From: Eledone cirrhosa
Taxonomy: Eukaryota
Reading direction: 5' to 3'
Assembly: GCA_964016885.1 (NCBI GenBank)
Contig: OZ024760.1
Span: 15,004,001 to 15,068,000 of the forward strand
Length of the DNA: 64,000 bases
Made by a program: the position numbers and the translations under genes. This document shows, piece by piece, positions 4,592 to 63,021 of this stretch (positions are counted from its first letter, which is position 1; every line of letters begins with the position of its first letter). Below the pieces are notes generated by a model. The model saw only the letters and a program-made list of their open reading frames with translations, did no database searches and was not told the origin of the DNA.

Positions 4592-4734
<143 letters not shown>

Positions 4735-14012: not shown

Positions 14013-14061
<49 letters not shown>

Positions 14062-33640: not shown

Positions 33641-33643
<3 letters not shown>
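33544..33643. mobile_element. Tc1/mariner-type MITE (100 bp)
   Basis: TIRs CAGGGTGTGCCAAAAAAATGTATACACAC / GTGTGTATACATTTTTGGGGGACACCTG; partial second copy at about 53845-53905. Confidence 0.75.
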
Positions 33644-36273: not shown

Positions 36274-36414
36274 TTATAATTCGTCTCTGTTTGTGGTTGC
36301 TGAAGGTGAGGGTTTGGGACAACTGGCAGGTGTGACAAAACTAAAGGCGTATTCACACCGACTGGGCTCTGAAGCACCCCGTAATTCACTCTCGATGCCA
36401 CAGTCAAAATGGAC
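36274..36414 (-). CDS. PRKCSH: PRKCSH exon 16 ([46 protein letters not shown])
   Basis: Poly-T/C tract plus CCACAG acceptor, EPSRCEY motif, RDEL then TAA. Confidence 0.96.
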   Translation of the reverse strand, partial: VHFDCGIESELRGASEPSRCEYAFSFVTPASCPKPSPSATTNRDEL

Positions 36415-39400: not shown

Positions 39401-42400
39401 ACATACACACACACATAGAAAACACTTACCCTACAGAAGTATACATGCAACACACATATATATATGTAGAAGTTCTATTTAAATTGTTGGGATACAACAA
39501 GCAAATATTTTTATAACTGATATAAAGCACTCAACAAATTATTGGAGTAAAAATACGATATTAACAAATGGAAACTATATTTATAAAACCATATTTATTT
39601 CATACATATTTCAAGGACACCAAGTTAAATTATGGTGTACTTTCATCAGATAAAATATAATATAGATCAGTTTTATAAATAAATATTGACATACCCTTAA
39701 AGAATGCGACCATTTCTGTTGGAAGCTCCCGGATAGTGGGGTTATAAATTTATTTATACTATTATGCAAATTAGTGTCGGATATGTTTAAATCACAGTAG
39801 ATTTAAAATAAGCCGTTGGGGTATGGAGAGAGGGAAAGAGAAAAAAGAAAAAAGCAGCTTTAAGAGGAGAAAAAGAGAAAGAGAAGAAATATATATATAT
39901 ACACAACACTTACCCTAAACTGGTTTCTATTCCCCCAGATTTACTTCGCTGAGAAGCCCGATCGAAGGGACAAAATAAATATGTGTATTCTCTGTCTGTA
40001 TATTCAAAACATTTGCCATATAAGGCATAGAATTCGTTATCTGGACCTAAATCTAGATCAAGTACTTTCTTCACATCACTGAAAAGAGAATAGAAAATAA
40101 AATACAGTTAACCCTTTAGCATTTAAACCAGCCGTATCCAGCCAAAATTCTCTCACTTCTTTCTGTTTAAACCAGCCATAACCGGCCAGAATTCTCTCAC
40201 CTCTTTCTGTTCAAACCGGTTGTAACCGGCCACTCATACTGATGTTAAGGTATTGTTCTCAAAATAAATAACACCAAAATCTCATATATTCAATATTATG
40301 TGAGATAATTATGTGAGGTAAAGCCTTTATTCTATATTTATTATTGTATTTTTGCAGTAATATAAAAGCTAAAGGGTTAAACAATAGACTTACCTGATAT
40401 CTTTCTCAATTTCTCTGACTTTTTTATCAGCCTCTTGATATTTTGATCTGGCAACATCTGCAGCTGTAAAAACAAAAAAGAGGAGATTCCAAGTCTTTCC
40501 AAGTAAAACCAACAATAAATGCTGAAAGTTTATTCCAAGCCTAGATTGCCACCCAGAAAATTAGGGATATCATTTTATGTTCGGTTTTTTTTTCCCCCTT
40601 ATTTTTTCCAATGGCATTAATGTCTCGGGTGGTGGATTGGCAGTATCGGTAGAGGGTCCGACGCCATGCTTTGCAGCATAGAGTTACGGCCCTTTCCATT
40701 CTGAGTTCAAATCCCGCAGAGGTCAAATTTGCCTTTCATCCTTACAGGGGTCGATAAAATAAAGTACCAGTAATACACTGGGATAATTGCTGGCCTTGTG
40801 CCAAAAGTAGAAACAATATGTCTAGTCTCGGAGGACCTGTGAAGGCTATAGAAACTGACCCTTCCTCCATTTAACCCAACCCCTAGTCCTCCCTACCCAG
40901 AATGTTATCCCTCTGAAATCCCTTCCTGATTCACTCATCACCCATGTTATGTTATCTTCTTGCTTAGCTACAAACTAACCATTATAACCAATCTTCCCTA
41001 CCCAGAATATGATCCTTCTGGAATCCCTTCCCCGATTCACTCATCACCCATACAACACACCTCATACAACACACCTCACCTCATACACCACACACCTCAC
41101 ACACCACACACCTCACACACCACACACCTCACACACCACACACCTCACACACCTCACACCCCACACACCTCACACCCCACACACCTCACACCCCACACAC
41201 CTCGCACCCCACACACCTCACACCCCACACACCTCACACCCCACACACAACACACCTCATACACAACACACCTCATACACAACACACCTCATACACAACA
41301 CACCTCATACACAACACACCTCATACACAACACACCTCATACACCACACACCTCATACACCACACCTCACACACAACACACCTCACACACAACACACCTC
41401 ACACACAACACACCTCATACACAACACACCTCATACACAACACACCTCATACACAACACACCTCATACACAACACACCTCATACACAACACACCTCATAC
41501 ACAACACACCTCATACACCACACCTCATACACCACACCTCATACAACACACCTCACACACAACTAACCTTCTATCAAAGCTTTTGTTGCCTGGTCATATT
41601 CTGGCATCTGAGGTTCAGAAACCTTGTCTTTGTCGTCTTTCTTCTTGTCTGGCTCATCAGCTGAAGGAGCCTACAACAACATCAACAACAACAACAACAT
41701 CAGCAACAATAACAGCACTGTCCTGTTATTAACTCTTTTGATACCAACCACAGCCAAAACCCTGCTCTGCTTCTATGAAACAACGAACCATATAAAATGA
41801 GAACCACATGAAAAGTGGTCGTGTAGGTGACACGACAATAAGCACCCAGCCCACTGTAGAGTGGTTGTGTAAGTGACATGACAATAAGCACCCAACCCAC
41901 ACTAAAGTGGTCATGTAGGTGACATGACAATAAGCACCCAGCCCACACTACAGTGGTCATGTAGGTGACATGAAAATAAGGACCCAGCCCACACTGTAAG
42001 GTGGTCATGTAGGTGACATGACAATAAGCACCCAGCCCACACACTAAGGTGGTCATGTAGGTGACATGACAATAAGCACCCAGCCCACACTGTAAGGTGG
42101 TCATGTAGGTGACATGACAATAAGCACCCAGTCAACACTGTAAAGAGGTTGTGTAGGTGACATGACAATAAGCACCCAGCCCGTGGTTGGTGTTAGGAAG
42201 GGCATCCAGCCATAGAAACCTAGCCAGAAACAGTTCAATATAAATAAGACAGTCACCTGACCCAACTTACCTCAAATGGGACCTGTCTAACCCATGCTAG
42301 CGTGGAAAATGGACATTAAACGGTGATGATGATGACGACGATATATTAATTTACTACCTTAGTAATGAAATAATCAGTACTTTTAATAAATCCCTTAAGA

Positions 42401-45400
42401 TCCTTCGAAAAAAAAAGATAGGATGGTCATAGCTGGATTGTATCAGATCATAGGTCTGCTCAGTGAGGTTTGATCTGAGAACTAAAAAGATGATGATGAC
42501 GATGATAATGGGGGTGAATAGTGGAAAGCAAGGGCTACTGTATTCGTTTGCACTCAGTTAATTGTAAAAGTGATGGAGGCATGTGGAGGAGGAAATTGGA
42601 AAATAAGACTAGCAGTATTTCCACCCAATGATAGAGGAATTGAAAGGCAAGGTGTAACTATATTTCCACCCATCGATAGAAGTGTGTAGTGGGGGCAATG
42701 AAAGACAAGGGTAGCTGTATTATTTTCCACAGTGCTGGAGGTGTATAGTATTTCCACATTATTTTTCACAACAATGAAGTGTGTAGTGGAGGAATTTGAA
42801 AGACGAGATTGGCACAATTTCCACACTGGTAGAAGTGTGTAGTGGAGGAATTGAAAGACCTGATTGGCTATATTTCCACACAGTTATTGAGGTGTGTAGT
42901 GGAGGAATTTGAAAGGCGAGGGTAGCGATATTTTTTTTCTACCTAGCAATTGAATGGAGTGTTGGAGGAACTAGAAGACAAGGCTGCTGTATTATTTTCC
43001 ACCTAATGATGGAGGAATCGAGAAGCCAAGTCTGGCTGTATTTCCACCCAGTGATGGAGGAATTGGGAAGCCAAGTCTGGCTGTATTTCCACCCAGTGAT
43101 GGAGGAATTGGGAAGCCAAGTCTGGCTGTATTTCCACCCAGTGATGGAGGAACTAGAAGACAAAAATGGGTGTATTATTTTCTACTTAGTAATGGAGTGG
43201 AATGATGGAAGAATTGGAGAGCCAGGTCAGCTCTTTTTCCATGCAATGACAGAGGAATGATATCGCTAGATCTGGCTGTAATTCCACCCAGTGATGGAGA
43301 GATTAGAAGGCAAGAGTTGGCTATATTTCCACCTAGAGATGAAGGGATTGCAAGGCAAGGTTTGGATATATTTTCCAGCCAGCTAGCCATTTGTAAAAAA
43401 CTACTTACAACTGAGTCTTCAAGATCAAGATCATAATCAGGATCAGATTTCTCATCTTCATAGTCGTCGTCATCATCATATAGGTCCCCAAAATGGGTAT
43501 CAGGGATAGTAGGGGCCTACAAAGGTTGGGGGGAGCCATTAGAAAGTTGGTTATTAAAAACGTTAAAACATAAATGGAAAAAAAAAATTTACAAAAAAAA
43601 AAAAGCAAACTATATTTTGTATGAATTATCAAATCAGTGGGAATGTTTGAAATTTGAAAATGTGAGAGTCCTAAACGCAGAAAATAATTGTATTAACAGT
43701 GTACATGATAGTTGAGAAAATTTGGTATATCAACCTTAGCGACAAAAAGTGGGGGGACAGAGGTGCTGCAGTCCACTTTTTCTTTTCCATTTTTAGGGGT
43801 TAATTTCCTTATTTTTCTCAACTAGTATCTGTTTGTTGATATTATCATTGATCTACTTCAAGGTTTCCAAACTTTTTCAAATATGGAACCTTTTTTGGAT
43901 CAGAAACTTTTGGGGTCATAATATAAATATACTCCTCTCCCTTTTTTTCATGGAACCCCAGATACTCCTTTGCAGAATCCTTAGGTTTCGCAAAACCCAC
44001 TTTAGGAGCCACAGGTCTACTGGCTCATACTCTTACCCATTCCAACCATCTGACTGAGGCCATGCTGGGGCATCGCTCTTAGATTTTTATAAAGGTGAAG
44101 AAAACTGACAAGGTTGAGCAACTACTTAGAGCCCCCCCCCCCCCCCCCCCCGGTTGGCGTGGGGGTGGTAAACTTGTTTAACCCCAGGCAATTCTAAAGG
44201 GACAGACCTATGATCAAAAGCATCCCAGATATGACAGTATCCGGTTTCTTTTTTTTTTTGTTTTACAAATAAATCTATATTTTGTTTATGGATATTATTA
44301 AAAGGTGGAGCCACTGGTGATGGTGGCAGGTGGTGGATGAATTAATTGATGGCAATGGTACAATGGTTGATGGAGGATGAAACCGATGGTGTATGTAATA
44401 GTTGTGGTTGTGTCAAGGCAGATGATGACAAACAAACTCAAAGAAAAAAATTAAAAGGTCCCACATTTTACCAAAACATCCACCTATAAAGAAAATTATA
44501 AACCAAACACTTGATTCAAAACCTTATACAAAACAAGTGCTTTAACCCTTTAAACCAGTCATATCAGGTCAAAATTCTCTCACCTCTTTCTGTTCAAACT
44601 GATGTTAAGGTATTGTTCTCAAGATAAACAATATCAAAATCTCAGATTCAATATTATATGCGATAATTAAACACTTTAACATAAACAGTTTTGTATCATA
44701 GAATCAGGGACAGTTTCAAGCAGCTTGGTTTGAAAAGGAATAAACCGATGTTTGGAACATAACTTAACATAGGTTTGGTATCAACAGGGTTAAAAAATAA
44801 AAGGATGAATAAGCAAGCTGTGCATCTGGTTCATTTTTAGTATATATATTTTTTTCTTTTGTATACAAACTAACTGCATAACGCAGGTGCATGGCTTAGG
44901 GAAGAAATGGGTGCATGGCTTATGAAAGAAACAGGTGCTATTTTAAGTTAGCCTACCTGAATTTGTCCATCATCAGCATTATCATCAGATGCCAAATCTT
45001 CATCATCATCAGAATCCTCATCTCCATCTTCATCAGCACCATCCTCATCATCTTGGGGTGCTGTTGTTGGAGGTGATGGTGGTGTGGGTAGTGTTGTTTC
45101 CTCTGATGTCGGCGCTGTTGTTTCCTCTTCAGGAGGGGTCACTTCTTCCTCAACAAGTTTACTGGGCTTACGATAAATCTCCTTAATGTTGGGCCACATT
45201 TTCTCGACAAAGTGCTCGTAGCTTGCCTCAGTAACTTCTTCCATGTATTCCTAGACAGACAGAAAAATTAAAAAAAAAGGGTTAATCCTATTACTTGGTC
45301 CAAATATACAACTGCTACATCACAACCCTAACCCACATTGCTCCAGTTTACTCAGCTGTAGAAATGAGTTGTGATGTCACTGGTGCCAACTTGTATCAGC

Positions 45401-48225
45401 CTGATAGAAATTTTTTTTAAATTAGCAATTTCAGAGGATGAAGTGAATGACCGAGCATGGATGTGTTGAGAGAGAAACTGTGTTTAAGAGGGATAAGCTG
45501 TAGTGTGTGGGAGAGAAGACTGCGATGGTATGGGCATGTGATGCGCATGGAGGATGACCGCTGGGTAAAGAAGTGTCAAGAAATCCCAGTTGAAGGAAGT
45601 AGAGGAAGACCACAAAATACATGGGCGGAGGTGGTGAGAGCTGACCCGAGATCGCTGAAGCTCACAGAGGAGATGACAAAGGACCGTGACAAGTGGAGAG
45701 ATGCTGTGCTGAATAGGACCCGTCCCACCCTTGCAAGCAGGGAAAAGCGGACGTAAAATGATGATGATGAAGAAAATTTTATATTTAAAGAAGAAGTCGT
45801 ACTTTTGCTTCGTCATCTGACACAGTTCCATCAGTATCAATGTCAAACTCAGAATGGCTCTTTAACTCATCCACACTGACACTAGAAATAGAAGAGAAAC
45901 ATTTTGTAAAATTAGAGAGTTGGAGTTTGTTTCAAGGTGTAAAGTGTAAAAAAAAAAAATTTTTAATAGTGACTTTTTTTTAGAAGGATACAGAAATGCA
46001 AAGAGGGCAATAAATGTTAAAAATAATTGTCTGAATTAAAGTTTGGTTTTAGATATTTTCTGCTAAATTATTACAGGATGTTAATTGAAAATGACAAATT
46101 GCTACTATAATGCTACAAATTTTCAAAACAATCTGTCCACTAATAAAAATACTATAAACACTTGAATTAAACTTGTTTTTAGATATTTTCTGCTCAATTA
46201 TCATAGAATGTTAAGAGATAACCTTCATAAACCATAACACTTACTATAAATCATTGTTGCTGTCTAGTTCAGTAAAAGCCTCTTTGGCAATGGCTTTTTC
46301 TTTCTCTTTCTGTAGATCCTTCTTCTCCTCTGAAATAAATCATTGTTGTATGTTAGATGTATTGAATGAATGGAGACATGGGACTTTTGATGAGGACATA
46401 ACCTCTCTATTGTGTGTGTGATGATAATATGCACCCAGTACACTCTAATGTGATTGGTGACCAAATAGAGTCAATATAGGGCAAAGAGAACTCTTGAGTC
46501 TAGCTAAGGACATGTAACCTCTAGTGCTGGTGCCATGATAATATGCACCCAGTACTCTCTGTAATGCTCTATCTAACAATTACCAGTTAATATCCTATAC
46601 CGCATGAAACCACATTAGTAAGACATTCTACAGTATGGCAAGAAAATGTGAAAAATGAAAGTCTTTAATCTAATACTGCAAAATTTCACAACAATGTCCA
46701 CTAATGAAGACACTATAAACATTTGAATTGACAAACCTTTTTTTTTTTTTTTTTAGATATTTTTCTGCTAAATTATTACAGGATGTTAAGAGGTATTAAA
46801 GAGATATTTACCCTCCCAGGCACTTTCATGAGTTTCTTTTGCCAATTTCTCAGGACCTTCAACTGAATTCTTTTCAGCTGCAAAAGAAATGTAAAGATAT
46901 GACATGTAAATATGGCATTAAACAAGATCCTGAAGGTATAATATTATTTAGAACAGGATTTTTCAAACTGCAAATCCTGGTACATTAGTTGGTCATACAC
47001 AAGTGAGAGGATAGGGATAGGATAAAGATCCCATAACTCCTTGTGGAGTCAGAGTCACTGTCATACGGTGTGTCTAGGACACTTTTAAACCTGGTGGAGC
47101 CCAACCCTCTCCAGGTCTGAACACAGCCAATTTTTTCTATAGAGGAATAATCGACCCCAGTACTGGACTGGTACTTTTTTTTTTATCGACCTCGAAAGGA
47201 TGAAAGGCAAAGTTGACCTCAGCAGGATTTGAACTCAGAACCCACAATGAAGTGGGACAAATACCGTTAAGCATTCTATCTGACGTCTTAACAACTCTGC
47301 TAATTTGCCGCCCACAAGTGAGAGCAATAAGACATTGGGTCACAATACATAATGCAGTTCTGGCTGTGGACCACAGTGAAAAAGGTTGACAAATGATCTA
47401 GACAAACAACAATTTCTCTTCACAACATTCAGCACTTTCATCCTTCCTCATCACTTGACCTAACCATCTCATTCCATTACTCTTCACAACATTCATCACT
47501 GATCTGACTTGACTCACAACAGTACAACTCGTCTAACCCATGCCAGAGATGAAAAATGAATGTTAAATGATGATGATGATGATGATGATTATTATTATTA
47601 TTATTACCTTCCATGTCAGTCTTGTGTAGTTCAGCTGAAATTTTCATAGATTCCAGCTCTATCAATTTAGCCTAGAAATGAAAAGAGGAAAAAAAAAAAA
47701 TGGACATTAAATTGTGATGATGATAGAAATATGAAAAAGAGAGAGAGAGGAACAGGAAAACCAACAGGAAGGATGGGAGAACCCCCCCCCCCCCCAGGTA
47801 GATTTAAATAATAATAAAGATGATAGAAATATGAAAAAGGTGAGTAGAGAGAGAAAGAGAAGAACAGACAAACCAACAGGAAGAGTGGAGAGAAAAACTA
47901 AAACAAGGTAGATAAACTTACTTTTTTCTCTTCTTTGGCTTTTTTACCTTCGTTAATGAATTCCTGTTTTTTAGCGTAACCTTCCATCTGCATCTTGTGC
48001 ACTTTCATGCGTTCTTCCATTGCCTTTTTACCCAATTCTCTGCAATTAGTCACAATATAAAGGTTTTATTATGTTTGGCAATCCTTCTTCCATATTGTTT
48101 TATGATTTAACTAGAGAGAAAAAGAGGGGGGAGGGAAATAGGGAAGCAGAGAAAGAGAGAGATAAAAAGTGAGAGAAAAGGGGAGAGAGAGAGAGAGAGA
48201 GAGAGAAAGAAAGAGAAAGAGAGAA

Positions 48226-48298
<73 letters not shown>

Positions 48299-51200
48299 GA
48301 GAGAGAGGGAAGCTGAGAGAGGAAGGGAGAGAAAGTAGAGAAACAGAAAGAGTCATGGTGAGATAGACAGCGAGATAAAAAGAGAAGCAGAGGGAGAGAA
48401 AGAGTGTGAGAGATAGAGACAGAAACAGAGAGAAAAAGATGGAGAGGCAGATAAAAAGGCAGAGGGATAGCAAGAGAGAGAGAGAGAGGGAGAAAGAGAC
48501 AGGGACAGAAATAGAGAGAGGCAGAGAAAGAGAAGGCGAGAGAGAGAGAGAGGGAGGGGGCAAGAGAGAGCAAGAGAGAGAAAGGGAGAAAGCAAGAGAG
48601 AGAGAGAGCAAAAGAAAGAGACAGAGATAGCAAGAGAGAGAGAGAGACAGACAGAGAGGGCAAGAGAGAGAGACAGACAGAGAGGGCAAGAGAGAGAGAC
48701 AGACAGAGAGGGCAAGAGGGAGAGAGAGAGACTATAACTTACATGCATTTATTAGGACAGGAGATGATCTCAGTGTATTCATCAGTGCCATCACAACAAT
48801 CTGGTGAGAGAAACAATAACAACAACAAGACTATATAAAATACAACAAGTGATGTCTCACTACTTGCCCCACCCTCACTTCCTCATGGTGAGTTACCAGA
48901 AATTCCAAAAGAAAAAAAAAAACGATTCTTGAAAATATTTAACATAGAATTTGAAAATATGGAAAAAGAAAATATTTCCTTAACCCTTCAGCATTTACAT
49001 TACTCTATATATACTATTGTATTTTTGTGGTAAAGGTTTTACCTCACATAATATCTCACAACATTTACATTACTCTATATATACTATTGTATTTTTGTGG
49101 TAAAGGTTTTACCTCACATAATATCTCACAACATTTACATTACTCTATATATACTATTGTATTTTTGTGGTAAAGGTTTTACCTCACATAATATCTCACA
49201 ACATTTACATTACTCTATATATACTATTGTATTTTTGTGGTAAAGGTTTTACCTCACATAATATCTCACAACATTTACATTATATATACTATTGTATTTT
49301 CATGATAAAGGCTTTATCTCATAATTATCTCACATAACGAATCTATGAGATTGATATTTATTTTGAGTACAATACCTTAACATTAGTATGAATGGCTGGT
49401 TACAGCTGGTTTGAACAGAAAGGCGAGAGTTTTCTTTGCTGGATATGGCTGGTTTAAATGCTAAACAGTTAAGCAAAAATAAAAATAAAAATACTTACCA
49501 CAGAAACCATCATTAACTCTTGAAGATGGAATGTAATTTGGGATGTAACCTGCATTGGTGCAATGGAATTTACCATTTATACAAGCAGCAGTACCTGGCA
49601 AGAGAAATTAAATATGTAACAGTAATTATATATTATATACAATGCTTCAAACAAACAACATTTTATTATCAATATATATATATATATATATAAATACATA
49701 ATCGGAGAAAGCTAATAGCGATACTCCATATATATATATATATATTTATCAATAATAATTGTTTCTACTTTTGGCACAAGGCCAGCAATTATCCCAGTGC
49801 ATTACTTTACTGGTACTTTATTTTATTGACCCCATAAGGATGAAAAGCAGAGTTAACCTCGGCGGGATTTGAACTCAGACTGTATGAAAATTATTGTGTA
49901 CAGTGCTCAGCTTCAAACTCCATAACATCCATCTTGGAGACAGATGTAATAATAAAAATTTACCTTTTACTTCTAATCTAAATTTAATTTCAAAAAGAAA
50001 AAAAGACGAGCATTTTTCTCTGAGAATTCCTCATACTATGACGAAGGGAATTTTATGCCCGAAATATTAGGACAAATGAAACAACAAAATAAAACAAAGA
50101 TTACCAGGTAACTAACTTTTACATTGCCTTCATCTTACCATCCATTATTTTGCAATGTTTAGCTTTCCTACATATATCACTTTCTCCATTAATAATAGAA
50201 AATGTACCCTTTATCGACTTCAGAAAGGTGAAATGCAAAGTCGCCCTTTGTTTAAATTAATCTTTAGCACGGTAGTAATTTTTACGAGTTGTTTCACTTG
50301 ACACTGCATTACCTATTTAGGGGAAATTACTCATATGGCACCACGTGTCGCCCACAGCGTGCTGAAGGTTAAGCACTCAACTCTCAAAAACAAAACAAAA
50401 CAAACCAAACCAAACCCAAATTTTTTTTAAATGGCAAAACATTTCTCACCTGGTTCATCAGACCCATCTGGACAATCACAATAATCATCGTTAACATAAT
50501 TGAATGGAACAATTATTGAGTTGTCAAGGCAACTGAAATTTTCAGACTGTCCTGAGTAGAAACCAGCCACTGGAAAAAATAAAAAGAGGGGAAAATAAGA
50601 ATGTTTTATACGAGGGTCAACTGAAAAGTTCTTAGGCTGACTATGAAGGAGTGATGCTAGAGCTGTGAAATCTTGCATGCATTAATTCAAACTCTTAATA
50701 ACTGCATTTTTTCTTTCCAGAGATTATATTGAAATATAAACCTAATTTGGTCATTCCATTAGAGTATCTTGGTCATAGGCTGACTATGAAGGAGTGATGC
50801 TAGAGCTGTGAAATCTTGCATGCATTAATTTCAACTCTTATTAATAACAGCATTGTTTCTTTCCAGGGACTATGTTGAAAAATAAACCTCATTTGATCAA
50901 TCCATGAGAGTACCTTGGTCAGACTGAAGGAGTGATGCTAGAACAGGTTTACATAGACAAAGTCAATACTGAAGCAGGGTTACTGACCACCCAGACAGAC
51001 CAAGGGGTGTGTATCCTGCTTATGACAGTCACATAGAGGGCAGAGTTGAAGTTGTCATGTCTTTTGACACAAACTGAAGGATCCTCCCAACCCCTTATTT
51101 TGCATGCTTTCTACGGCTAGATGCCCTTCCTAACACCAACCACTTTACAGTGTGTACTGGGTGCTTTTGTGTAGATCACCAACAATAAATGTATGTATGT

Positions 51201-51388
51201 GTATATATATATTTAGGTTCTAGTGAGTGTTGAACTCACGACCTTCTGCGTGTTAAGCAGATATGATAACCACTACGCCATAGAACCTCACATTCTAGTC
51301 CTGTAGAAGCCATTTCTATATTAATTCTTGTATCTACTAATGTATTGAGTACTTCACTTACTGTGGTTACCGCCAATTTAATCCAGGA

Positions 51389-51428
<40 letters not shown>

Positions 51429-54348
51429 AAATAATATTGATTTCTACTAAAGGCAGAAGGCCAGCAATTTGGGAAGAAGGGAAAGTTGATTAAATCAACC
51501 CCAGTGCATTACTGGTACTTTATTATCAACCCCATAAAGATGAAAGGCAAAGTGGAAACTAAGAATCAATATAGTATCTTGTATATTTTATTCTCCTGCG
51601 ACGTATCGGCATTGATCAGACATATTCACAAGTCTGATGAGCTATTGATCCTAGAGTCTTGACCAATCATACCTTGAACTGACCAATGGTACTACATGTT
51701 AAATTGATACTTTGTTGCCAGTTATTATTATTAAACTCTATTACAGATACCAAAGCCACAGACCACACAGGGAAGAGTCACATTCTAGTAGCCGGATCCA
51801 CATAATAGCACCGAGTCCATAAACTGGTGAACTTCCAATAACTTAACTCTTTACCATTTACATAACTCTATATATACTATTGTATTTTCACAGTAAAGGC
51901 TTTACCTCACATAATATCTCTCACAACATTTACATTACTCTATATATACTATTGTATTTTCACAGTAAAGGCTTTACCTCACATAATATCTCACATAACA
52001 TTTACATTACTCTATATTTACTATTGTATTTCCACAGTAAAGGCTTTACCTCACATAATATCTCACATAACATTTACATAACTCTATATATACTATTGTA
52101 TTTTCACAGTAAAGGCTTTACCTCACATAATACCTCACATAACATTCCTCTATATATACTATTGTATTTTCACAGTAAAGGCTTTACCTCACATAATATC
52201 TCTCACAACATTTACATTACTCTATATATACCATTGTATTTTCACAGTAAAGGCTTTACCTCACATAATATCTCACATAACATTCACATTACTCTATATA
52301 TACTATTGTATTTTCACAGTAAAGGCTTTACCTCACATAATATCTCACATAACATTTACATTACTCTATATTTACTATTGTATTTCCACAGTAAAGGCTT
52401 TACCTCACATAATATCTCACATAACATTTACATAACTCTATATATACTATTGTATTTTCACAGTAAAGGCTTTACCTCACATAATACCTCACATAACATT
52501 CACATTACTCTATATATACTATTGTATTTTCACAGTAAAGGCTTTACCTCACATAATATCTCTCACAACATTTACATTACTCTATATATACCATTGTATT
52601 TTCACAGTAAAGGCTTTACCTCACATAATATCTCACATAACATTCACATTACTCTATACATACTATTGTATTGTCACAGTAAAGGCTTTACCTCACATAA
52701 TATCTCACAACATTTACATTACTCTATATATACCATTGTATTTTCACAGTAAAGGCTTTACCTCACATAATATCTCACAACATTCACATTACTCTATATA
52801 TACTATTGTATTTTCACAGTAAAGGCTTTACCTCACATAATATCTCACATAACATTTACATTACTCTATATATACTATTGTATTTTCACAGTAAAGGCTT
52901 TACCTCACATAATATCTCACATAACATTCACATTACTCTATATATACTATTGTATTTTCACAGTAAAGGCTTTACCTCACATAATATCTCACATAACATT
53001 CACATTACTCTATATATACTATTGTATTTTCACAGTAAAGGCTTTACCTCACATAATATCTCTCATAACATTTACATTATATATATATACTATTGTATTT
53101 TCACAGTAAAGGCTTTACCTCATATAATTATCTTACATAATATTGAATCTTTGAGATTGAGATTTATTTTTAGAACAATACCTTAACGCCAGTATGAGCA
53201 GCCGATAATGACCGGTTTTAACAGAAAAGGGTGAGACAATTGTGGTTGGATATGGCCGGTTTCAACGTTAAAGGGTTAATGCTACACACCAAGCAACAAT
53301 ATACATATATAGTTATTGAGTGCTTTTGTGCAAACCTAATTGTATCTCGTTAGCTTGGCCACCGCCATAACTTCGATTTTACTAACCTCCCATTTGTATA
53401 TATATATATATATATATATATTTAATATAGAAATGGCTTCTACAGGACTAGAACTGTTTCATTCAAGAGAAATCATCAGTAAATCATCATCATCATATAT
53501 ATATATTGCATGCATTGTGCACACTCTGCAGTGGTCGCCATATCTAGACCTTGAAAGATAAGATAATGTAAAACATGCTACGTGTATGAAAATAATTAAA
53601 TACTAAATTCTTGCACTAAATTGAGCACTTTTTTCCTTTCCACAGACATTTTGGCTTCTTATACACACACATACATACATACATATAAACATACATACAT
53701 ACAAACATGTCTCAAAAAAATTTTTAAAAATGCATTAAATTAAATTCTGTTTTATATACATTATTTAAATGTAAACATTTTTGGGTGCTTCAATACAATT
53801 GAATTGTCTGTAGATCAGTTTATTTTGGGGAAAGGCTGTGCATCCTAATAAATATTGCCTGTACAGGTCATCAAAGTATGTATACATTTTTCTGGTGACA
53901 CACTGTGTGTGTGTATATATATATATACCTTTGTTCGTACTGCCTCTGTTTTGTTCCCGTTCCATTTTTCACTATATATATATATATATATAGAACGGGA
54001 ACAAAACAGAGAGGCAGTACGAACAAAGGTTTATTAGTTTCGCGCTCTTGAGAGTGTGGGGTGTGTGTGTGTGTGTGTGTGGTGTGGTGTGGTGTGGTGT
54101 GGTGTGGTGTGGTGTGGTGTGGTGTGGTGTGGGTGTGGGTGTGGGTGTGGGTGTGGGTGTGGGTGTGTGTGTGTGTGTGTGTGTCTGGTTCAATCAGGGG
54201 TAATACCAGTAAGGTTCAATACATTAGTAGAGTGTATACAACAAATTCATTATAGAAATGGCTTCTACAGGACTAGAACTGTTTCATTTGAAGGAATAAT
54301 TTCCTTCGAATGAAATAGTTCTAGGTCTGTATAAGCCATTTCTATATT

Positions 54349-54386
<38 letters not shown>

Positions 54387-55084
54387 GCCTTTTTTTCCCA
54401 GGGAATTCATAATTGTTGAAATGATAATACGTTTCTGCAGAAAACCTGACATTCGTGGGCAAACTGCGGCCAATTTAGTGTTTCTGAATGACACACCTAA
54501 CGAAAAATTAACTTGAATTTGTGTTATAGTGCGGTCGGCCTTGTAATGAGACGTATATCATGAGGCCCACAGCTCGAAAAAGGTCACCCAAGTCTGGCCT
54601 AATATTCAATTCATTATCAACATGAAATTGGAAGGTGTGATGAACAAATTTCCGGGTTTACCTTTAGTTTAGCCGCGTAGCAAACACAAAGCAAAAGTAT
54701 TCGGTTAATGAAAGCATTAACGAAAATGAGCTATATACAATAATGAAAGCATTAGGAAAGAAAAGTTAAATTATAATTATTTAATTTCGTCAATACAACC
54801 GTCAATTTACGTCATAGTAAATGTGTCTCAGTAAAATTATATTCACAAATTATTATTATTAAGGAAGTTGCGATGAAATAGATTCGGGGCGGGGAGCACT
54901 AAAGTGTTGTTAATGTCGACTGTGATAGTTAAGTGTGAAAATCAAGGTTGTTAAAATAAATGGCTATGTGCTGTCAATCAAAGAAATACTTACTGCTTAT
55001 AGATACACCGCGAGGGCGGGGTACGCCGGACTGTGCCGTGCAGTAGAAATGGTACATTATTAGTAGAAGATTAATGGGCAGCAT
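36274..55084 (-). CDS. PRKCSH: Glucosidase II beta subunit (PRKCSH/80K-H), 16 coding exons, about 585 aa
   Basis: Manually spliced exons total 1758 nt with consistent phases. The translation shows a signal peptide plus RPRGVS, two Cys-rich LDLa-like repeats ([20 protein letters not shown]; [15 protein letters not shown]), a coiled coil, EF-hand loops, an acidic/Pro-rich region, an MRH domain ([15 protein letters not shown]) and terminal RDEL. It is collinear with human PRKCSH as recalled. Confidence 0.97.
36460..37125 (+). mobile_element. R4/Dong-like RLE non-LTR retrotransposon fragment (CCHC plus PD-(D/E)xK nuclease)
   Basis: ORF 36472-37089: [40 protein letters not shown]; antisense in the last PRKCSH intron. 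Confidence 0.88.
37590..37950 (+). mobile_element. Cephalopod SINE fragments (Ceph-domain-like)
   Basis: GGGTTCGAT B box, TTGTGAG..GGTAGATGGAAACTG core, duplicated CTGAATCTCCCTGAG tail. Confidence 0.6.
38210..38520 (-). mobile_element. RTE-type LINE remnant
   Basis: Minus strand encodes decayed [10 protein letters not shown] and [10 protein letters not shown] motifs. Confidence 0.65.
38528..38845. repeat. Perfect 35-bp minisatellite, about 9 copies
   Basis: Unit AAGGTGGGTCAAACGAACAAGAGACATACATGTAC, identical copies, no spacers. Confidence 0.95.
38866..38965 (-). CDS. PRKCSH: PRKCSH exon 15 ([33 protein letters not shown])
   Basis: TTGCAG acceptor, AAG|GTAAAG donor, 100 nt, MRH motif CWNGPDRS. 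Confidence 0.95.
39914..40078 (-). CDS. PRKCSH: PRKCSH exon 14 ([56 protein letters not shown])
   Basis: TTTTCAG acceptor, GG|GTAAGT donor, 165 nt, N-terminal part of the MRH domain. Confidence 0.95.
40112..40376. mobile_element. TTAA-flanked (piggyBac-type) MITE filling PRKCSH intron 13
   Basis: TTAA-CCCTTTAGC...GCTAAAGGG-TTAA. Confidence 0.8.
40394..40463 (-). CDS. PRKCSH: PRKCSH exon 13 ([23 protein letters not shown])
   Basis: TTTTACAG acceptor, AG|GTAAGT donor, 70 nt. Confidence 0.93.
40630..40818 (+). mobile_element. SINE (Meta-domain-like)
   Basis: Complete head, core and tail. Confidence 0.82.
41050..41560. repeat. CA-rich minisatellite (CACACCTCATACACAA)n
   Basis: About 16-bp unit, abutting the exon 12 donor. 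Confidence 0.9.
41568..41670 (-). CDS. PRKCSH: PRKCSH exon 12 ([34 protein letters not shown])
   Basis: [13 protein letters not shown] matches MPPYDEQTQAFID; G|GTTAGT donor; 103 nt. Confidence 0.92.
41812..42182. repeat. Minisatellite of about 46-48 bp, about 8 copies
   Basis: Unit GTGGTCATGTAGGTGACATGACAATAAGCACCCAGCCCACACTGTAAG. Confidence 0.9.
42184..42340 (+). mobile_element. RTE-tail SINE/LINE 3' end
   Basis: AGGAAGGGCATCCAGCC...AACCCATGCTAGCGTGGAAAATGGACATTAAA followed by (TGA)n. Confidence 0.65.
42570..43380. repeat. Degenerate ~45-bp tandem repeat
   Basis: Unit GTGATGGAGGAATTGGGAAGCCAAGTCTGGCTGTATTTCCACCCA. Confidence 0.8.
43409..43516 (-). CDS. PRKCSH: PRKCSH exon 11 ([36 protein letters not shown]), acidic, possibly cassette
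   Basis: Branch-like TTCTAAT, TTTGTAG acceptor, GTAAGT donor, 108 nt open, phase 0-0. Confidence 0.78.
44542..44793. mobile_element. TTAA-flanked MITE, same family as 40112
   Basis: TTAACCC...AAAATTCTCTCACCTCTTTCTGTTCAAAC...GGGTTAA. Confidence 0.65.
44957..45250 (-). CDS. PRKCSH: PRKCSH exon 10 ([26 protein letters not shown]...acidic/Pro-rich...DDGQIQ)
   Basis: 294 nt, phase 0-0, CAG|GTAGGC donor; corresponds to ORF 44948..45244. Confidence 0.92.
45430..45770 (+). mobile_element. RTE-clade LINE 3' end
   Basis: [12 protein letters not shown]...RGRPQNTW...DRDKWR followed by a (TGA)n tail. Confidence 0.88.
45803..45881 (-). CDS. PRKCSH: PRKCSH exon 9 ([27 protein letters not shown])
   Basis: TTCTAG acceptor, GTACGA donor, 79 nt, EF-hand loop [12 protein letters not shown]. 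Confidence 0.92.
46245..46329 (-). CDS. PRKCSH: PRKCSH exon 8 ([28 protein letters not shown])
   Basis: TTTCAG acceptor, GTAAGT donor, 85 nt, start of EF-hand 1. Confidence 0.9.
46812..46877 (-). CDS. PRKCSH: PRKCSH exon 7 ([22 protein letters not shown])
   Basis: TTTTGCAG acceptor, G|GTAAAT donor, 66 nt. Confidence 0.9.
47070..47312 (-). mobile_element. SINE (Meta-domain-like), paralogue of 5185-5430
   Basis: Reverse-complement head, core and the same CAGACCTGGAGAGGGTTGGG tail. Confidence 0.8.
47608..47671 (-). CDS. PRKCSH: PRKCSH exon 6 ([21 protein letters not shown])
   Basis: TTCTAG acceptor, G|GTAATA donor, 64 nt, KLIEL matches the orthologue. Confidence 0.9.
47922..48039 (-). CDS. 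PRKCSH: PRKCSH exon 5 ([39 protein letters not shown])
   Basis: TGCAG acceptor, GTAAG donor, 118 nt, in phase. Confidence 0.92.
48113..48731. repeat. (GA)n-rich polypurine tract in PRKCSH intron 4
   Basis: Direct observation. Confidence 0.9.
48743..48800 (-). CDS. PRKCSH: PRKCSH exon 4 ([19 protein letters not shown])
   Basis: AG/GTAAG boundaries, 58 nt, DCCDGTDEY motif. Confidence 0.95.
48980..49472. mobile_element. TTAA-MITE (reverse orientation) with internal 70-bp tandem array
   Basis: TTAACCCTTCAGC...GCTAAACAGTTAA; about 4.5 copies of a 70-bp unit. Confidence 0.75.
49499..49594 (-). CDS. PRKCSH: PRKCSH exon 3 ([32 protein letters not shown])
   Basis: AG/GT boundaries, 96 nt, strong similarity to GTAACPNGSFHCTNTGY. 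Confidence 0.95.
49750..49880 (-). mobile_element. SINE (Meta-domain-like) 3' half
   Basis: GGCACAAGGCCAGCAA...CTGGTACTTTA...GGATTTGAACTCAG. Confidence 0.78.
50450..50569 (-). CDS. PRKCSH: PRKCSH exon 2 ([40 protein letters not shown])
   Basis: Acceptor TTTTTTCCAG, donor G|GTGAGA, 120 nt, phase 1-1. Confidence 0.95.
50609..50945 (+). mobile_element. Mariner-like left end with ~145-bp tandem duplication
   Basis: TA-CGAGGGTCAACTGAAAAGTTC terminus; GAAGGAGTGATGCTAGA occurs three times. Confidence 0.55.
51215..51287 (-). tRNA. tRNA-Val(AAC)-like sequence, probably pseudogene or repeat-borne
   Basis: Acceptor stem GGTTCTA/TAGAACC, anticodon stem TCTGC/GCAGA with loop TT-AAC-AC, T stem GTGAG/CTCAC. 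The D stem is imperfect and the T loop is TTCAACA. Confidence 0.65.
51843..53279. mobile_element. TTAA-MITE (reverse orientation) carrying a 72-bp minisatellite, about 17-18 copies
   Basis: TTAACTCTTTA...TAAAGGGTTAA ends; the internal unit is homologous to the 70-bp unit at 49 kb. Confidence 0.8.
54450..54596. mobile_element. hAT/Charlie MITE related to 1792-2084
   Basis: GTGGGCAAACTGCGGCC...AAAAGGTCACCCAAGTCTG. Confidence 0.5.
54994..55084 (-). CDS. PRKCSH: PRKCSH coding exon 1 ([30 protein letters not shown])
   Basis: ATG at 55084-55082, hydrophobic signal peptide, RPRGVS motif, donor A|GTAAGT. Confidence 0.93.
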
Positions 55085-55220: not shown

Positions 55221-56395
55221 GCTTCATTGCTTCTTCTAATTGATCGATCGGCTTGCTAGAAACAGTAGCTAAATGCCACTCTAAGCGTGCTTAACGGTCT
55301 TAACCCTTTTAATACCAAACCACCTTTGGTTTTAAGGCACAAAAACTAGGAGGAAACTCACAATGACACAATATCGTAACTTTGTTGATACCAAATTGCC
55401 CAAAATTGCTTATGATACAAAAAAACTGGGAAATAGATCATTCTCGAAGACACAGAGGGTCTATGCGATAGTTTGACATGCTAGAAATAGCAGCCAGATG
55501 TCCCTTAATAGCTGCTCGAATGGAGCGTAGCAGGAATTGAAAGGATCAGTTTCTCTTAAGTCCCAAATAATGGGGAATGTGCTGGAATAAGCGGAGTCTT
55601 CAAGCATTCCCTCCAGCGGCTCCTGTCAGAAACAACCGTCTCCAACAGATCCGGCTGGACCCCCAAACGTGACCAGCCAGGCTCATGAATGTTATCAAGC
55701 AATCTTGCTAGGGTCTACCTGTTGGTTTCGCCCGCAAAAATATGTCCAACGATTCCGCTACGACTTAAAAATAAAGTTTCGCCGGATATAGATTAGCAAA
55801 ATTTAATAAGCGGGATGGATGGGGGATTGAGTGAAAAAATCTGAAAAATTGATAATCGAGGTTGCGGAAGATTATTCGGGACCCGAGAGTATATCCCATA
55901 TTGTGTCACGGTGAATGTTGTAAGTTAAGCATCCGAACCAATGTATGTGGTAAATATAGTGACACTTGCACTAAACCTCAATGACTGGCTGTGTTCTGAC
56001 TCAGTAGTTAAGTAGAACACTTGTTGTTTGAAACTCCGACAATATAAATATATTTATGTGTATGTATAATATATACATGTATGTATGTATAATATATACA
56101 TGTATGTATATGCATGAAGACCAACCACAACCGGCTATTGCCAGTGAATGTTTTTATCATGGTTGCCAACTCTATGCAAGACATTTTAGATCCTTGGCTG
56201 GGCTAAAAAGCCACATTCGATCGCAGCTCCGTTAATTATTAATATATATATATATATTGTTATACTTTGGGAGGGTCATGTTGCCAATAAGAAACACACG
56301 CACCTTTGGCTACATGACCCTCCCAAAGTATAACAATATCGGTTTCAACACACGTTTTCAGATAGAGAATTTTGCTATACAAATTCAGAAACCAA

Positions 56396-56426
<31 letters not shown>

Positions 56427-56583
56427 GGAACCAGTAAGACCCCGACAGCTGAGCTCAAGCCGTTTCGACGGCTAATTCTGGACTAAATGAACATTACTGG
56501 TTCCTATTACCCACTCTACTACCTCAAGTATTGAGTACTTTGGTGCGTTATGGTCCACCTGGTTCCTTACCACATTTCCTTCG

Positions 56584-56638
<55 letters not shown>

Positions 56639-57698: not shown

Positions 57699-57739
<41 letters not shown>

Positions 57740-57838
57740 ATAAAAATAAATTTGAAGACTAAAATCCAAAGAGGGCTCGATAAGGATAAATATATTTCAA
57801 ATATATAAGAACCGTAAAGCAAATATTTATTAAAATAA

Positions 57839-57944
57839 CAGATTAAAGTTTAAGCAAAGAATCGCTGCTTTCACCCTTAACGAGATCTTCTGAGTTTCAC
57901 CGTTAAGGGTGAAAGCAGCGATTCTTTGCTTAAACTTTAATCTG
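57839..57944. repeat. Perfect 44-bp inverted repeat with an 18-nt loop
   Basis: 57839-57882 is the exact reverse complement of 57901-57944; flanked by ~95-bp direct repeats. Confidence 0.95.
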
Positions 57945-58191
57945 CCATTTTAACAAATATATGTATATATATAGTAATAATAATAAATTTGAAGACTAAA
58001 ATCTAAAGAGGGCTCGATAAGGATAAATATATATAAAATATATAAGAACCGTAGAGCAAATATTTTAATATATATATATATCAGATTACAAACAAAAATT
58101 ACCATTCCTGGATGCCTTCAATAAAATAATGGTGAGGTGACCTGTTTCTCACAAAATGAAGAATTTGTCAAAGTCTGGGACATATTTTGTT

Positions 58192-58323: not shown

Positions 58324-58395
<72 letters not shown>

Positions 58396-58699
58396 TCATT
58401 GGACTTATACCATTAAGTTTAAGTTCACATGAAGATATGTCACTATCTTAACACCAAATATTATATTTTATCTGATGAAAGTGTACTTAAATAGTGGTTG
58501 GTGATAGGAAGGACATAGAAAACCTGCTAGATGACAGGATATTGAACAGAGCAGGATGGAATATTTGATGAGATCTTGGTGTTAGATCTTAGATCACAAA
58601 GATGGACCAGAAAAGATTTTTCATAGTTCTTTGTACCTTCATGGTAAATAGCTCTCCATTTTGTACCATTTTCCAAGAGATGTCAACATGAATGGACCT

Positions 58700-58891
58700 G
58701 TTATTTTTATCTAAAGACGTTTTTTCCAATTCCAACCCACCCGTCCCCTAAATCTATCTTATTTCTCATTCTTTCTTCTGATGAAGGACTAGCGTCCGAA
58801 ACGTTATGACCTTCTTCCTGCTATATCAAGCGTTAACCTAATATATCCTTTCCATATACTGTACCGATTGTGTTATTTCTGTTTACCTTTT
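58700..58891 (+). mobile_element. Penelope-like pLTR-type short element with hammerhead motif
   Basis: Paralogue of 4981-5178; ends in (CA)n(TA)n. Confidence 0.6.
58774..58809 (+). ncRNA. Minimal hammerhead-like motif (second copy of the 5066 family)
   Basis: TCTT-CTGATGA-A-GGAC-TAGC-GTCC-GAAA-CGTT-ATGA. Confidence 0.55.
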
Positions 58892-59197: not shown

Positions 59198-59842
59198 GTG
59201 TGAATGTTCAGGTTTGGAAGCAAGCAAGTCTCGTTCATGAAGGCGAAGTCTGCTGTGACTGAAGAAATAAATACATACATACAAAATATTACATTAATAA
59301 ACAAAGTAAATAAACCTAGAAAACAAACAAACAAATATAAAAACATAATAGCTAAAATAAAACAACATAATAACTACATAACATAAAAAATAAACAACAC
59401 TCCCTCCACCCCTTCTTCTCTGTTTTGTCATTTGCACCTCTCCCTTTCCTCCTGTTTTACCCCCTCCCTCTTTTTTTATCTACCTTTTTCTCTCTCTTAA
59501 ACCTTCCTCCGCCTTTCTTGTTGTATATGTAACCCTCCCATTTTTCCTCTCGACGGACGGTGAAATTTGATTGGTTGATATATATGTGTCGTCAGAAGCA
59601 TTGTATGATGGCGCCTTCTGTTGGACTTCCTGTTTCACTCGAGGTGGAAAGTTAAGATGACTTTAAAGGTATTGTTCAGAAAAAAAAACAAACAACATTT
59701 ACTCGTTGAAAATATTTTTTTAATTATTATTATTTCTTCTTTCTTTATACTTCATCATCTGTTCATAATTAATCGCATCCATTTATATTACATTTGCTTT
59801 CGTTCGCAACATATTTCCTTCGATCAGATATACTATATATCT

Positions 59843-59958: not shown

Positions 59959-60486
59959 ATATGTAAGATTTAATATAAGAATGGCTTCTACAGGACTAGA
60001 AGTGTTTCATTCGAAGGAAAGCACCGGGCTTTCCTGATGATTTCCTGCTAATGAAACAGTTCTAATCCTGTAGAAGCCATTTCTATATTAAATATTGTAT
60101 ATACTCTACTAATGCATCGAGTACCTTACTGTGGTTACCCCCGACTGAACCCAGGACTCATATATATATATATATATATAATTGTAGTGGATGTTGCTGG
60201 CCTTATGCCTAAATTAGAAACCATTATTATTTATTATCCCGTCTGGGGGTGGGGATCTGGATGGGTGGGAAACAAGAGACAGACTCAATAGTTCTTATTT
60301 GTTACACTTTTTTTTTGTTGTATTTGTGTATGTAGCTTACAGTTTAGTTCCTTGTATATATATATATACACACATGATATCTACATGTCGATTTCTATTC
60401 CACTCCTTCCTGTATGATCATGTATATATACACATACATATGTTTGTGCGTGTATATATATACACATATATATATGTGTGTAAGCT

Positions 60487-62315: not shown

Positions 62316-62370
<55 letters not shown>

Positions 62371-62505
62371 CAAAGATTAATACGGTTCATTGATTACTCA
62401 ATGAATATAGTTTTACAATAGATTAAAAGCACTCTACAAAGAAGTTTTCTGGAGTTATTAATATTATTCAAAATATTAATAAATGAAGACATTCACATAA
62501 TTAAA

Positions 62506-62577
62506 ATATGTTTTATTATATATATTTCGGAGGTACTGTGCTGTTTTGTCAGTACGTCCTCGTCAGATAAGATACAT
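62506..62577 (-). ncRNA. Minimal type-I hammerhead ribozyme (inverted twin copy)
   Basis: Reverse complement reads UCUUAU-CUGACGA-GGACGUACUG-ACAAAACAGCA-CAGUACCUCC-GAAA-UAUAUA-UA-AUAAAA, with one stem I mismatch. Confidence 0.72.
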
Positions 62578-62676
62578 GAATTGATGTATGACATACCTCA
62601 ACTGTCTTGATGGTTTAATTTGACTGCCAAGACTGGAATTGAACCATCAAGACAGTTGAGGTATGTCATACATCAA

Positions 62677-62752
62677 TATATGTATTTTATCTGACGAGGA
62701 CGTACTGAAAAAACAGCACAGTACCTCCGAAATATATATAATAAAACATATA
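62677..62752 (+). ncRNA. Minimal type-I hammerhead ribozyme
   Basis: UUUUAU-CUGACGA-GGA(C)GUACUG-loop-CAGUAC(C)UCC-GAAA-UAUAUA-UA^-AUAAAA. The core is intact, stem II has 9 bp, stem I has 6 bp plus an extension, and the predicted cut is after 62740. Confidence 0.8.
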
Positions 62753-62790
62753 TTTTAATTATGTGAATGTCTTCATTTATTAATATTTTG

Positions 62791-62826
<36 letters not shown>

Positions 62827-62917
62827 CGAAGGGAATGTAGCAAGGAACCAGGTGGACCATAACGCACCAAAGTACTCAATACTTAGGGTAGTAGAGTGGG
62901 TAATAGGAAAAAGTATG

Positions 62918-63003
62918 ACCCCGACGGCTGAGCTCAAGCCGTTTCGACGGCTAATTCAGTCCAGAATTAGCCGTCGAAACGGCTTGAGCTCAGCCGTCGG
63001 GGT
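62918..63003. repeat. Perfect 40-bp inverted repeat with a 6-nt loop
   Basis: ACCCCGACGGCTGAGCTCAAGCCGTTTCGACGGCTAATTC followed by AGTCCA and its reverse complement. Confidence 0.95.
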
Positions 63004-63021
63004 TCTACTCGCTCCTATATA

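What the first reader, a model, noticed from the sequence alone, without database searches (positions are those of the whole stretch)
62461..62798. Pair of intact hammerhead ribozymes in inverted orientation inside a 340-bp fold-back element
Seen: a near-perfect inverted repeat (~160-bp arms, 16-nt loop) running into (TA)n. Each arm holds a full minimal type-I hammerhead: CUGACGA, a 9-bp stem II, GAAA, a palindromic UAUAUA stem-III loop, a UA^ cleavage site and a 6-bp stem I. One reads on + (cut after 62740) and one on -. Known: minimal hammerheads with palindromic stem III occur in the terminal repeats of Penelope-like elements and in retrozymes and can act as dimers; Penelope insertions often carry an inverted terminal repeat. 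Inferred: a young insertion where transcription from either strand yields one sense ribozyme plus its own antisense arm. Folding could therefore switch between self-cleavage and a long dsRNA hairpin (ADAR/Dicer substrate).
Basis: partly seen in the sequence, partly recalled or inferred. Interest (0 to 1): 0.85.

Follow-up and report, generated by a model that had tools for sequence, protein, structure and literature searches.

The report
Octopus Penelope retroelement fold-back insertion scar
This hairpin in octopus-type DNA carries a hammerhead (self-cutting RNA) motif on each strand, but it is most likely the ordinary head-to-head scar of a Penelope-like jumping gene that landed in a TA repeat, and the hairpin is predicted to keep both ribozymes folded away rather than act as a switch.

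Summary
In detail: 160-bp arms (7 of 162 columns differ), a 16-nt spacer, and a type I hammerhead core on each strand. The minus-strand copy has a weaker stem I. The element is larger than reported. The 94 nt to its left (62367-62460) are a one-sided tail, homologous to a distant relative at ~39.5 kb, so the insert spans 62367-62798 between two (TA)n runs. [quoted passage not shown] Two other families in the window show the same shape. The proposed switch is not supported: in either read-through direction the antisense arm is made first, and the hairpin is predicted to win by about 80 kcal/mol. One possibly undescribed detail: a stem-loop with a 2-nt bulge (RCUC...GAGY) lies in the tail here, in the other window families, and in 3 of 6 published Hydra consensuses. 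It may position reverse transcription. No RT/endonuclease gene, genome-wide copy number or expression could be tested.

The parts
62318..62366 (.). (TA)24 left target microsatellite
62367..62460 (-).
   Evidence: Collinear with the downstream part of the relative at ~39.5 kb; local score 33, 0 of 1000 shuffles as high; best non-self place among 1966 tiles
62429..62455 (-). Tail stem-loop ACUC-CAGA-loop-UUUG-UA-GAGU (outer 4 bp, 2-nt 3' bulge, inner stem); candidate RT-positioning element (inferred)
   Evidence: seen by eye in published Hydra consensuses
62461..62620 (-). Left arm: 5'-truncated 3' end of the element, long-tail copy
62511..62572 (-). Type I hammerhead motif, core 62566-62560, predicted cut at 62517, stem I 4 contiguous pairs
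62621..62636 (.). 16-nt unpaired spacer at the head-to-head junction, bordered on both sides by AATT (possible microhomology); which copy it belongs to is unresolved
62637..62798 (+). Right arm: inverted 5'-truncated copy with the short end, stopping 5 nt before the tail hairpin and running into (TA)n
62685..62746 (+). Type I hammerhead motif, core 62691-62697, self-complementary AUAUAUAU helix III, predicted cut after 62740
62795..62825 (.). (TA)15 right target microsatellite, shared with the next fold-back insertion (62826-63015)
39467..39700 (-). Distant, decayed single-orientation relative (hammerhead core at 39649, tail hairpin at 39548), in a PRKCSH intron; 5' limit approximate

Best explanation
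The 432-bp insert (62367-62798) consists of two short copies of one hammerhead-bearing sequence joined head to head inside a (TA)n run, and it is most likely the insertion scar of a Penelope-like retroelement, probably of the Hydra clade, whose two ribozyme copies would be inactive in any read-through RNA. Likely mechanism (inferred from the lizard Poseidon element, PMC11167929): the element's GIY-YIG endonuclease nicks both strands of the TA repeat. Each nick primes reverse transcription near the 3' end of the element RNA, one at the outer start site (long copy with the tail) and one at the inner start site (short copy, ending just before the tail hairpin). Both cDNAs stop early, some 55-75 nt upstream of the hammerhead core, and are joined at AATT microhomology. 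The hammerhead is a passenger from the parent's terminal repeat, where it would work as a dimer through the self-complementary helix III. In the scar it occurs twice only because the 3' end was copied twice. Shown: anatomy, tail, target, relatives, sister insertions. Inferred: PLE parent (0.88), Hydra clade (0.55), twin priming rather than snap-back (0.55).
For: One-sided tail and (TA)n on both sides. The same shape (short arm ending near the hairpin, long arm running 55-94 nt further to a microsatellite) in 4 of 5 insertions measured, from 3 families; the script failed on the fifth. Published PLE shape: 5' truncation, adjacent inverted truncated copy, one-sided tail (PMC8557442). Hydra-clade PLEs target (TA)n, carry hammerheads and occur in Octopus; Penelope-13_HM has an inverted truncated copy with hammerheads listed on both strands. 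Dual minimal hammerheads 100-700 bp apart on opposite strands were reported in Schistosoma (PMC4209133). The host is an octopus: a PRKCSH exon is 95% identical to Octopus sinensis. Stem II keeps its 3+6 bp shape in the distant relative, with 7 of 9 pairs changed on both sides (read from the folds), so the ribozyme was under selection in the parent family. The tail hairpin is seen by eye in 3 of 6 Hydra consensuses, plus 1 near match. The hairpin out-competes the ribozyme fold by about 80 kcal/mol.
Against: No RT or GIY-YIG remnant is linked: the insert has no stop-free stretch over 62 codons, and a short-motif scan of the window gave 6 matches, none convincing. No whole genome is held, so copy number and the autonomous parent are unknown. 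The tail (94 nt) is longer than the 30-40 nt usually quoted. The hammerhead differs by eye from that of the one published octopus Hydra family, and its helix III (3 bp, all A-U) is weaker than that of most Hydra hammerheads. The tail hairpin is missing from 2 of 6 Hydra consensuses and was also seen once in a Naiad. Neptune, Nematis and Poseidon tails were not available, so the hairpin's clade specificity is untested. The covariation rests on two lineages only, and the relative's own helix III and cut site are decayed. No near-identical copy lies elsewhere in the 64 kb.
Confidence: 0.85

Rival explanations
1. Same PLE origin, but the inversion arose by snap-back: one cDNA left the RNA, folded back on itself at AATT/AATT with a 16-nt loop, copied itself, and was then joined to the other side of the TA target.
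For: AATT borders the spacer on both sides; the arms are about 96% identical; spacers are short in several sister insertions (6-30 nt in 4 of the 5 other fold-backs listed between 53.9 and 63.0 kb).
Against: The short arms stop at a similar place relative to the tail hairpin in different families (5, 5 and 10 nt before it; one case blurred), as expected from a second defined RT start site (PMC11167929). A pause at the hairpin could also give this.
Confidence: 0.35
2. One reading: the fold-back is a functional RNA that alternates between self-cleavage and a long dsRNA hairpin.
For: Both cores are intact. Octopus has exceptionally high hyper-editing and dsRNA potential (PMC5625713, passages). 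A transcript starting inside the spacer would carry a free ribozyme.
Against: An energy gap of about 80 kcal/mol, with the antisense arm made first in both directions. Even isolated arms favour other folds by 5.4 and 6.6 kcal/mol (dimer and tertiary contacts not modelled). PLE minimal hammerheads showed no monomer cleavage and low dimer cleavage. The Poseidon hammerhead needed protein and left no RNA-seq ends at its site. Sister fold-backs in the window mostly lack a complete second hammerhead.
Confidence: 0.03
3. A non-autonomous palindromic element (MITE-like, or a retrozyme derivative) that moves as a fold-back unit.
For: Short, non-coding, long inverted arms, TA-rich target; retrozymes are reported to derive from PLE terminal repeats (10.64898/2026.07.22.740005, part 1 of 5).
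Against: The insert is asymmetrical (one-sided tail); the relative at 39.5 kb is single-orientation; within families F and M the fold-back point differs from copy to copy; there is no tandem array.
Confidence: 0.08
4. Assembly or library fold-back artefact.
For: The region is extremely rich in microsatellites, and the locus was not checked against reads.
Against: The arms differ at 7 of 162 columns, end at biologically patterned points, and the same shape recurs in other families.
Confidence: 0.03

Closest known systems
Insertion unit of canonical endonuclease-bearing Penelope-like elements (Craig et al. 2021, PMC8557442, Fig. 2 legend)
   Same: 5'-truncated copies, adjacent inverted truncated copy, tail at one end only, hammerhead near the 3' end, microsatellite target
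   Different: Both copies are cut down to ~160-250 nt with no ORF left; the tail is 94 nt rather than 30-40 nt
Hydra-clade PLEs, e.g. Penelope-13_HM and Hydra-1_Obim (PMC8557442 supplement)
   Same: (TA)n target, canonical type I hammerhead, presence in Octopus, hammerheads on both strands in Penelope-13_HM, shared tail stem-loop in 3 of 6 consensuses read
   Different: Not the Hydra-1_Obim family by eye; longer stem II with an internal mismatch and a weaker all-A-U helix III; protein motifs unavailable
Minimal hammerheads of metazoan PLEs (Cervera and de la Pena 2014, PMC4209133)
   Same: Long stem II, short palindromic helix III suited to dimers, pairs on opposite strands 100-700 bp apart
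   Different: No extra base between positions 9 and 10.1; the 6-bp stem I is closer to the canonical form
Non-LTR retrozymes (PMC7229834)
   Same: Short non-coding metazoan unit with a type I hammerhead
   Different: Retrozymes are head-to-tail tandem repeats; this is a head-to-head pair

Membership tests
Penelope-like element (EN+) insertion | Parent ORF with PLE reverse transcriptase and GIY-YIG endonuclease | not testable with these tools
   No genome held; no ORF in the insert and no convincing motif match in the window
Penelope-like element (EN+) insertion | Type I hammerhead near the 3' end | tested here: met
   covariation with a relative
Penelope-like element (EN+) insertion | 5'-truncated copy with an adjacent inverted truncated copy | tested here: met
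Penelope-like element (EN+) insertion | Tail extension at one end only | tested here: met
   94-nt tail, longer than the 30-40 nt in print
Penelope-like element (EN+) insertion | Dispersed family of variably truncated copies | tested here: inconclusive
   One distant relative and one fragment in 64 kb; no genome-wide count
Hydra clade of PLEs | RWK and DKT motifs, CxCX5C linker, C-terminal GIY-YIG without CCHH | not testable with these tools
   No protein is linked to the insert
Hydra clade of PLEs | Insertion into (TA)n | tested here: met
   shared with Naiad and Neptune, so not diagnostic
Hydra clade of PLEs | Canonical hammerhead in the 3' region | tested here: met
   compared with the format of File S2
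Hydra-1_Obim family | Sequence similarity to the published 3' end | tested here: not met
   Compared by eye only: different stems I, II and III
Naiad clade of PLEs | Lack of a canonical hammerhead | tested here: not met
   Hammerhead present; no likeness by eye to the three octopus Naiad 3' ends
Non-LTR retrozyme | Head-to-tail tandem units of 150-450 bp, each with a hammerhead | tested here: not met
   Only TA runs are tandem here; the copies are inverted
Non-LTR retrozyme | Expression as linear and circular monomer RNA | not testable with these tools
   No RNA data laid on the locus
MITE (non-autonomous DNA transposon) | Inverted repeats that define both termini | tested here: not met
   One terminus lies 94 nt beyond the arm

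The most novel reading that the evidence does not exclude
TA-targeting Hydra-type PLEs share a conserved tail stem-loop (RCUC-stem-loop-stem-NN-GAGY, with a 2-nt 3' bulge), from octopus to coral, sea cucumber and copepod. It lies between the two ends at which copies terminate and is the RNA element that the reverse transcriptase binds to set its two start sites. It would explain a long (55-95 nt) clade-specific tail and mark thousands of ORF-less octopus fold-backs as the products of several undescribed PLE families, which would then be a major source of the long dsRNA edited by ADAR in octopus.
Probability: 0.4. Interest if true: 0.5.

Novelty: new member of a known kind. Interest (0 to 1): 0.27.

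Why it matters
As a locus it is ordinary: one of several PLE-type fold-back scars in this window, in a shape that is already published. It matters modestly in two ways. Such scars are ready-made long dsRNA if transcribed, in a lineage with exceptional RNA editing. And the shared tail stem-loop is a concrete, testable candidate for how PLE reverse transcriptases choose their two start sites, a step studied in vitro for one element only (PMC11167929).

Tried and rejected
Rfam: no hammerhead match; its models miss this form, so the blank carries little weight. Pattern scans: 2 matches in metagenome contigs, both read as chance matches inside bacterial restriction-modification-like genes; 0 in viral contigs. 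Earlier findings by place and by sequence: nothing. One search used a misregistered structure string and is discarded; one search is the corrected count. In one search one of the 7 double changes comes from the truncated copy at 58470 because of an alignment gap, so I take the 7 of 9 from the folds. The energy of the dimeric active fold could not be evaluated (my notation produced crossing pairs). Pairwise alignment of this tail to the tails of families F and M was not significant (83-272 of 1000 shuffles as high, 5 of 5 comparisons); only the hairpin descriptor links them. The geometry script failed on the 56424 insertion. Which copy owns the spacer could not be settled from the relatives. 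Retrozyme, Naiad, MITE and artefact readings were rejected as given under rivals and membership.

Full report
Observation. The sequence holds an inverted repeat with arms at 62461-62620 and 62637-62798 and a 16-nt spacer; 7 of 162 aligned columns differ. It folds as one hairpin at -244 kcal/mol, z -38. A type I hammerhead descriptor found 2 sites in the 64 kb, one in each arm (core at +62691 and -62566), and none in 100 simulated windows. The + copy has a 6-bp stem I, a stem II of 3 bp + C.C mismatch + 6 bp, GAAA, a self-complementary AUAUAUAU helix III and a predicted cut after 62740. The - copy has only 4 contiguous stem I pairs. Rfam gave no hammerhead.

Host and setting. An exon at 39913-40077 is 95% identical to Octopus sinensis glucosidase II beta (PRKCSH), so the host is an octopus. 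That gene runs on the minus strand from about 55084 to 36277; the element lies about 7.3 kb upstream of its start, outside the coding span. Whether it lies in another transcript is unknown. No whole genome is held.

The element is larger than reported. A distant relative lies at about 39467-39700 on the minus strand and a fragment at about 58395-58495. Read on the minus strand, the 94 nt left of the fold-back continue the alignment with the relative's downstream part, and both end in (TA)n. The local score was 33 against a maximum of 29 in 1000 shuffles, and this was the best non-self place among 1966 tiles of the window. So the insert spans 62367-62798, between TA runs at 62318-62366 and 62795-62825: a long copy with a tail on the minus strand and a short inverted copy on the plus strand. 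The relative keeps the 3+6 bp stem II with 7 of 9 pairs changed on both sides (read from the folds; one search gives 7 double changes against a shuffled mean of 3.4, one of them from the truncated fragment). This is two lineages only, but it shows that the ribozyme fold was selected in the parent family. The relative's helix III and cut site are decayed.

The shape is generic in this window. Two other families, F (copies near 13.9, 29.1, 51.3, 53.4, 54.2 and 60.0 kb) and M (17.3, 56.4 and 62.9 kb), lie in microsatellites and form fold-backs with different turning points. F has a complete Hydra-format hammerhead at -14007 with a 7-bp stem I (2 hits in the window, simulated mean 0.01; the finding's minus copy fell just under that scan's cut-off). 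In 4 of 5 fold-backs measured, the long arm ran 55-94 nt beyond the shared end to a microsatellite; the script failed on the fifth. The M insertion at 62826-63015 shares its TA run with the finding.

Comparison with print. Craig et al. 2021 (PMC8557442: passages, section 11, supplement parts 2, 23, 24, 52 and 53 of 59, and term searches; preprint passages) describe PLE insertions as 5'-truncated, often with an adjacent inverted truncated copy and a 30-40 bp tail at one end. Their Hydra clade targets (TA)n, carries canonical hammerheads and includes an Octopus family. Penelope-13_HM has an inverted truncated copy, and its hammerhead is listed on both strands. Cervera and de la Pena 2014 (PMC4209133, parts 1-2 of 4, supplements not read) report dual minimal hammerheads 100-700 bp apart on opposite strands, no monomer cleavage and low dimer cleavage. 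Frangieh et al. 2024 (PMC11167929, parts 1-2 of 4) show a PLE protein cutting and extending both strands of AT-rich DNA, with two RT start sites that bound the tail. Their hammerhead needed protein, was dispensable for insertion in vitro, and left no RNA-seq ends at its site. Evgen'ev 2013 (PMC3681739, passages) reports siRNAs matching the inverted regions of rearranged Penelope copies. Retrozymes are tandem repeats (PMC7229834, passages; 10.64898/2026.07.22.740005, part 1 of 5, supplements not seen), which this is not. PMC5625713 (passages) gives octopus a very high hyper-editing rate. PMC8969392 (passages) repeats the PLE anatomy.

The switch idea. Both ribozymes point outwards, so read-through from either side makes the antisense arm first. 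The hammerhead-competent ensemble lies 83.6 (+) and 80.9 (-) kcal/mol above the free ensemble, and the core was fully paired at all 8 growing-transcript lengths tested. Isolated arms also prefer other folds, by 5.4 and 6.6 kcal/mol; dimer and tertiary contacts were not modelled. Only a transcript starting near the spacer could carry a free ribozyme. The dsRNA half of the idea is reasonable if the locus is transcribed, which was not tested.

A tail stem-loop. The tails share RCUC-stem-loop-stem-NN-GAGY. A descriptor gave 5 hits in the window against a simulated mean of 0.26 (maximum 3 in 200), each followed by (TA)n 54-89 nt on. It was drawn up from 4 of these 5, so that figure is inflated, and the three family F tails did not pass it. 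On 8 aligned window tails, 94% of cells paired and 2 of 7 pairs changed on both sides; these are related sequences. The independent check is by eye on the six new Hydra consensuses: exact in Hydra-2_Amil, Hydra-2_Ajap and at the 5' start of Hydra-1_Ajap, with G-C in place of the outer A-U pair and different inner stems; one mismatch in Hydra-1_Crog; absent in Hydra-1_Amil and Hydra-1_Obim, whose consensuses end soon after the hammerhead. Of 19 other occurrences of six related 8-mers in the Naiad and Chlamys files, 1 formed the hairpin by eye (Naiad_Mmer, about 460 nt from its end); line breaks may hide others. By hand arithmetic on the tables, 24 Hydra-clade hammerheads (one 5' copy left out) start 87-130 nt (12), 152-210 nt (11) or 425 nt (1) before the consensus end. 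Two groups some 80 nt apart would fit a tail longer than 30-40 nt. I did not find this hairpin described in the listings of searches or in the passages read; the library lacks most subscription journals, and several supplements were not seen.

Mechanism. I favour twin priming: both strands of the TA repeat are nicked, one cDNA starts at the outer site and one at the inner site beside the hairpin, and both stop early and join at AATT. Snap-back of a single cDNA is the main rival. Both are inferred. Three earlier scan reports on other genomes reached the same general reading; I saw them after forming mine, and they are not independent support.

Verdict. A real feature, correctly spotted but ordinary: a likely PLE insertion scar from an undescribed octopus family, probably Hydra-type, with two passenger hammerheads. 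Interest 0.27, mostly for the tail stem-loop lead. Left open: the parent ORF, copy number, read support, expression and cleavage.

Noticed in passing
window 13953-14015, 29080-29132, 51293-51392, 53418-53483, 54180-54355, 59965-60160: Family F: microsatellite-bounded PLE-type 3' ends; a complete Hydra-format hammerhead at -14007 (7-bp stem I, ACAG/CTGT helix III); two fold-back copies with a one-sided tail.
   Followed up: partly
window 62826-63015, 56424-56590, 17250-17335: Family M: fold-back insertions holding, by eye, the 3' half of a hammerhead and the tail stem-loop; the 62826 copy shares a TA run with the finding, so two insertions sit in one microsatellite.
   Followed up: partly
window 58690-58885 (+) and 4988-5178 (-): A further minimal-hammerhead family (CUGAUGA-A-GGAC/GUCC-GAAA), two copies 91% identical, both ending at a microsatellite; likely another PLE 3' end.
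   Followed up: partly
window 57720-58065: A 104-nt direct repeat enclosing a 44-bp inverted repeat, bounded by TA runs; related sequence at 1599-1682.
   Followed up: no
window 4486-4593, 16990-17133, 53928-54029, 56258-56335: Other short fold-backs, mostly beside TA runs, families unassigned.
   Followed up: no
window 36277-55084 (-): Complete glucosidase II beta (PRKCSH) gene, octopus type; the relative of the finding at ~39.5 kb lies in one of its introns in sense orientation.
   Followed up: yes
window 59540-59675 (+): Promoter-like stretch followed by ATG and a splice-donor-like site, seen by eye; if it is a first exon, the finding would lie in an intron of a plus-strand gene and could be transcribed. 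Unverified.
   Followed up: no
window 51215-51287 (-): tRNA match (Rfam, 53 bits; the anticodon loop reads AAC by eye) directly beside a truncated family F copy.
   Followed up: no
window 36469-37089 (+): 206-codon open stretch with a weak zf-RVT match (E 2e-4, below cut-off), likely a non-LTR retrotransposon 3' fragment within a PRKCSH intron.
   Followed up: partly
window 33544-33642: Short element with terminal inverted repeats next to TA, resembling a Tc1/mariner-type MITE (label recalled, not tested).
   Followed up: no
L001 683-733, L002 973-1023: Chance matches to the hammerhead pattern on the antisense strand of bacterial restriction-modification-like genes (judged by eye).
   Followed up: partly
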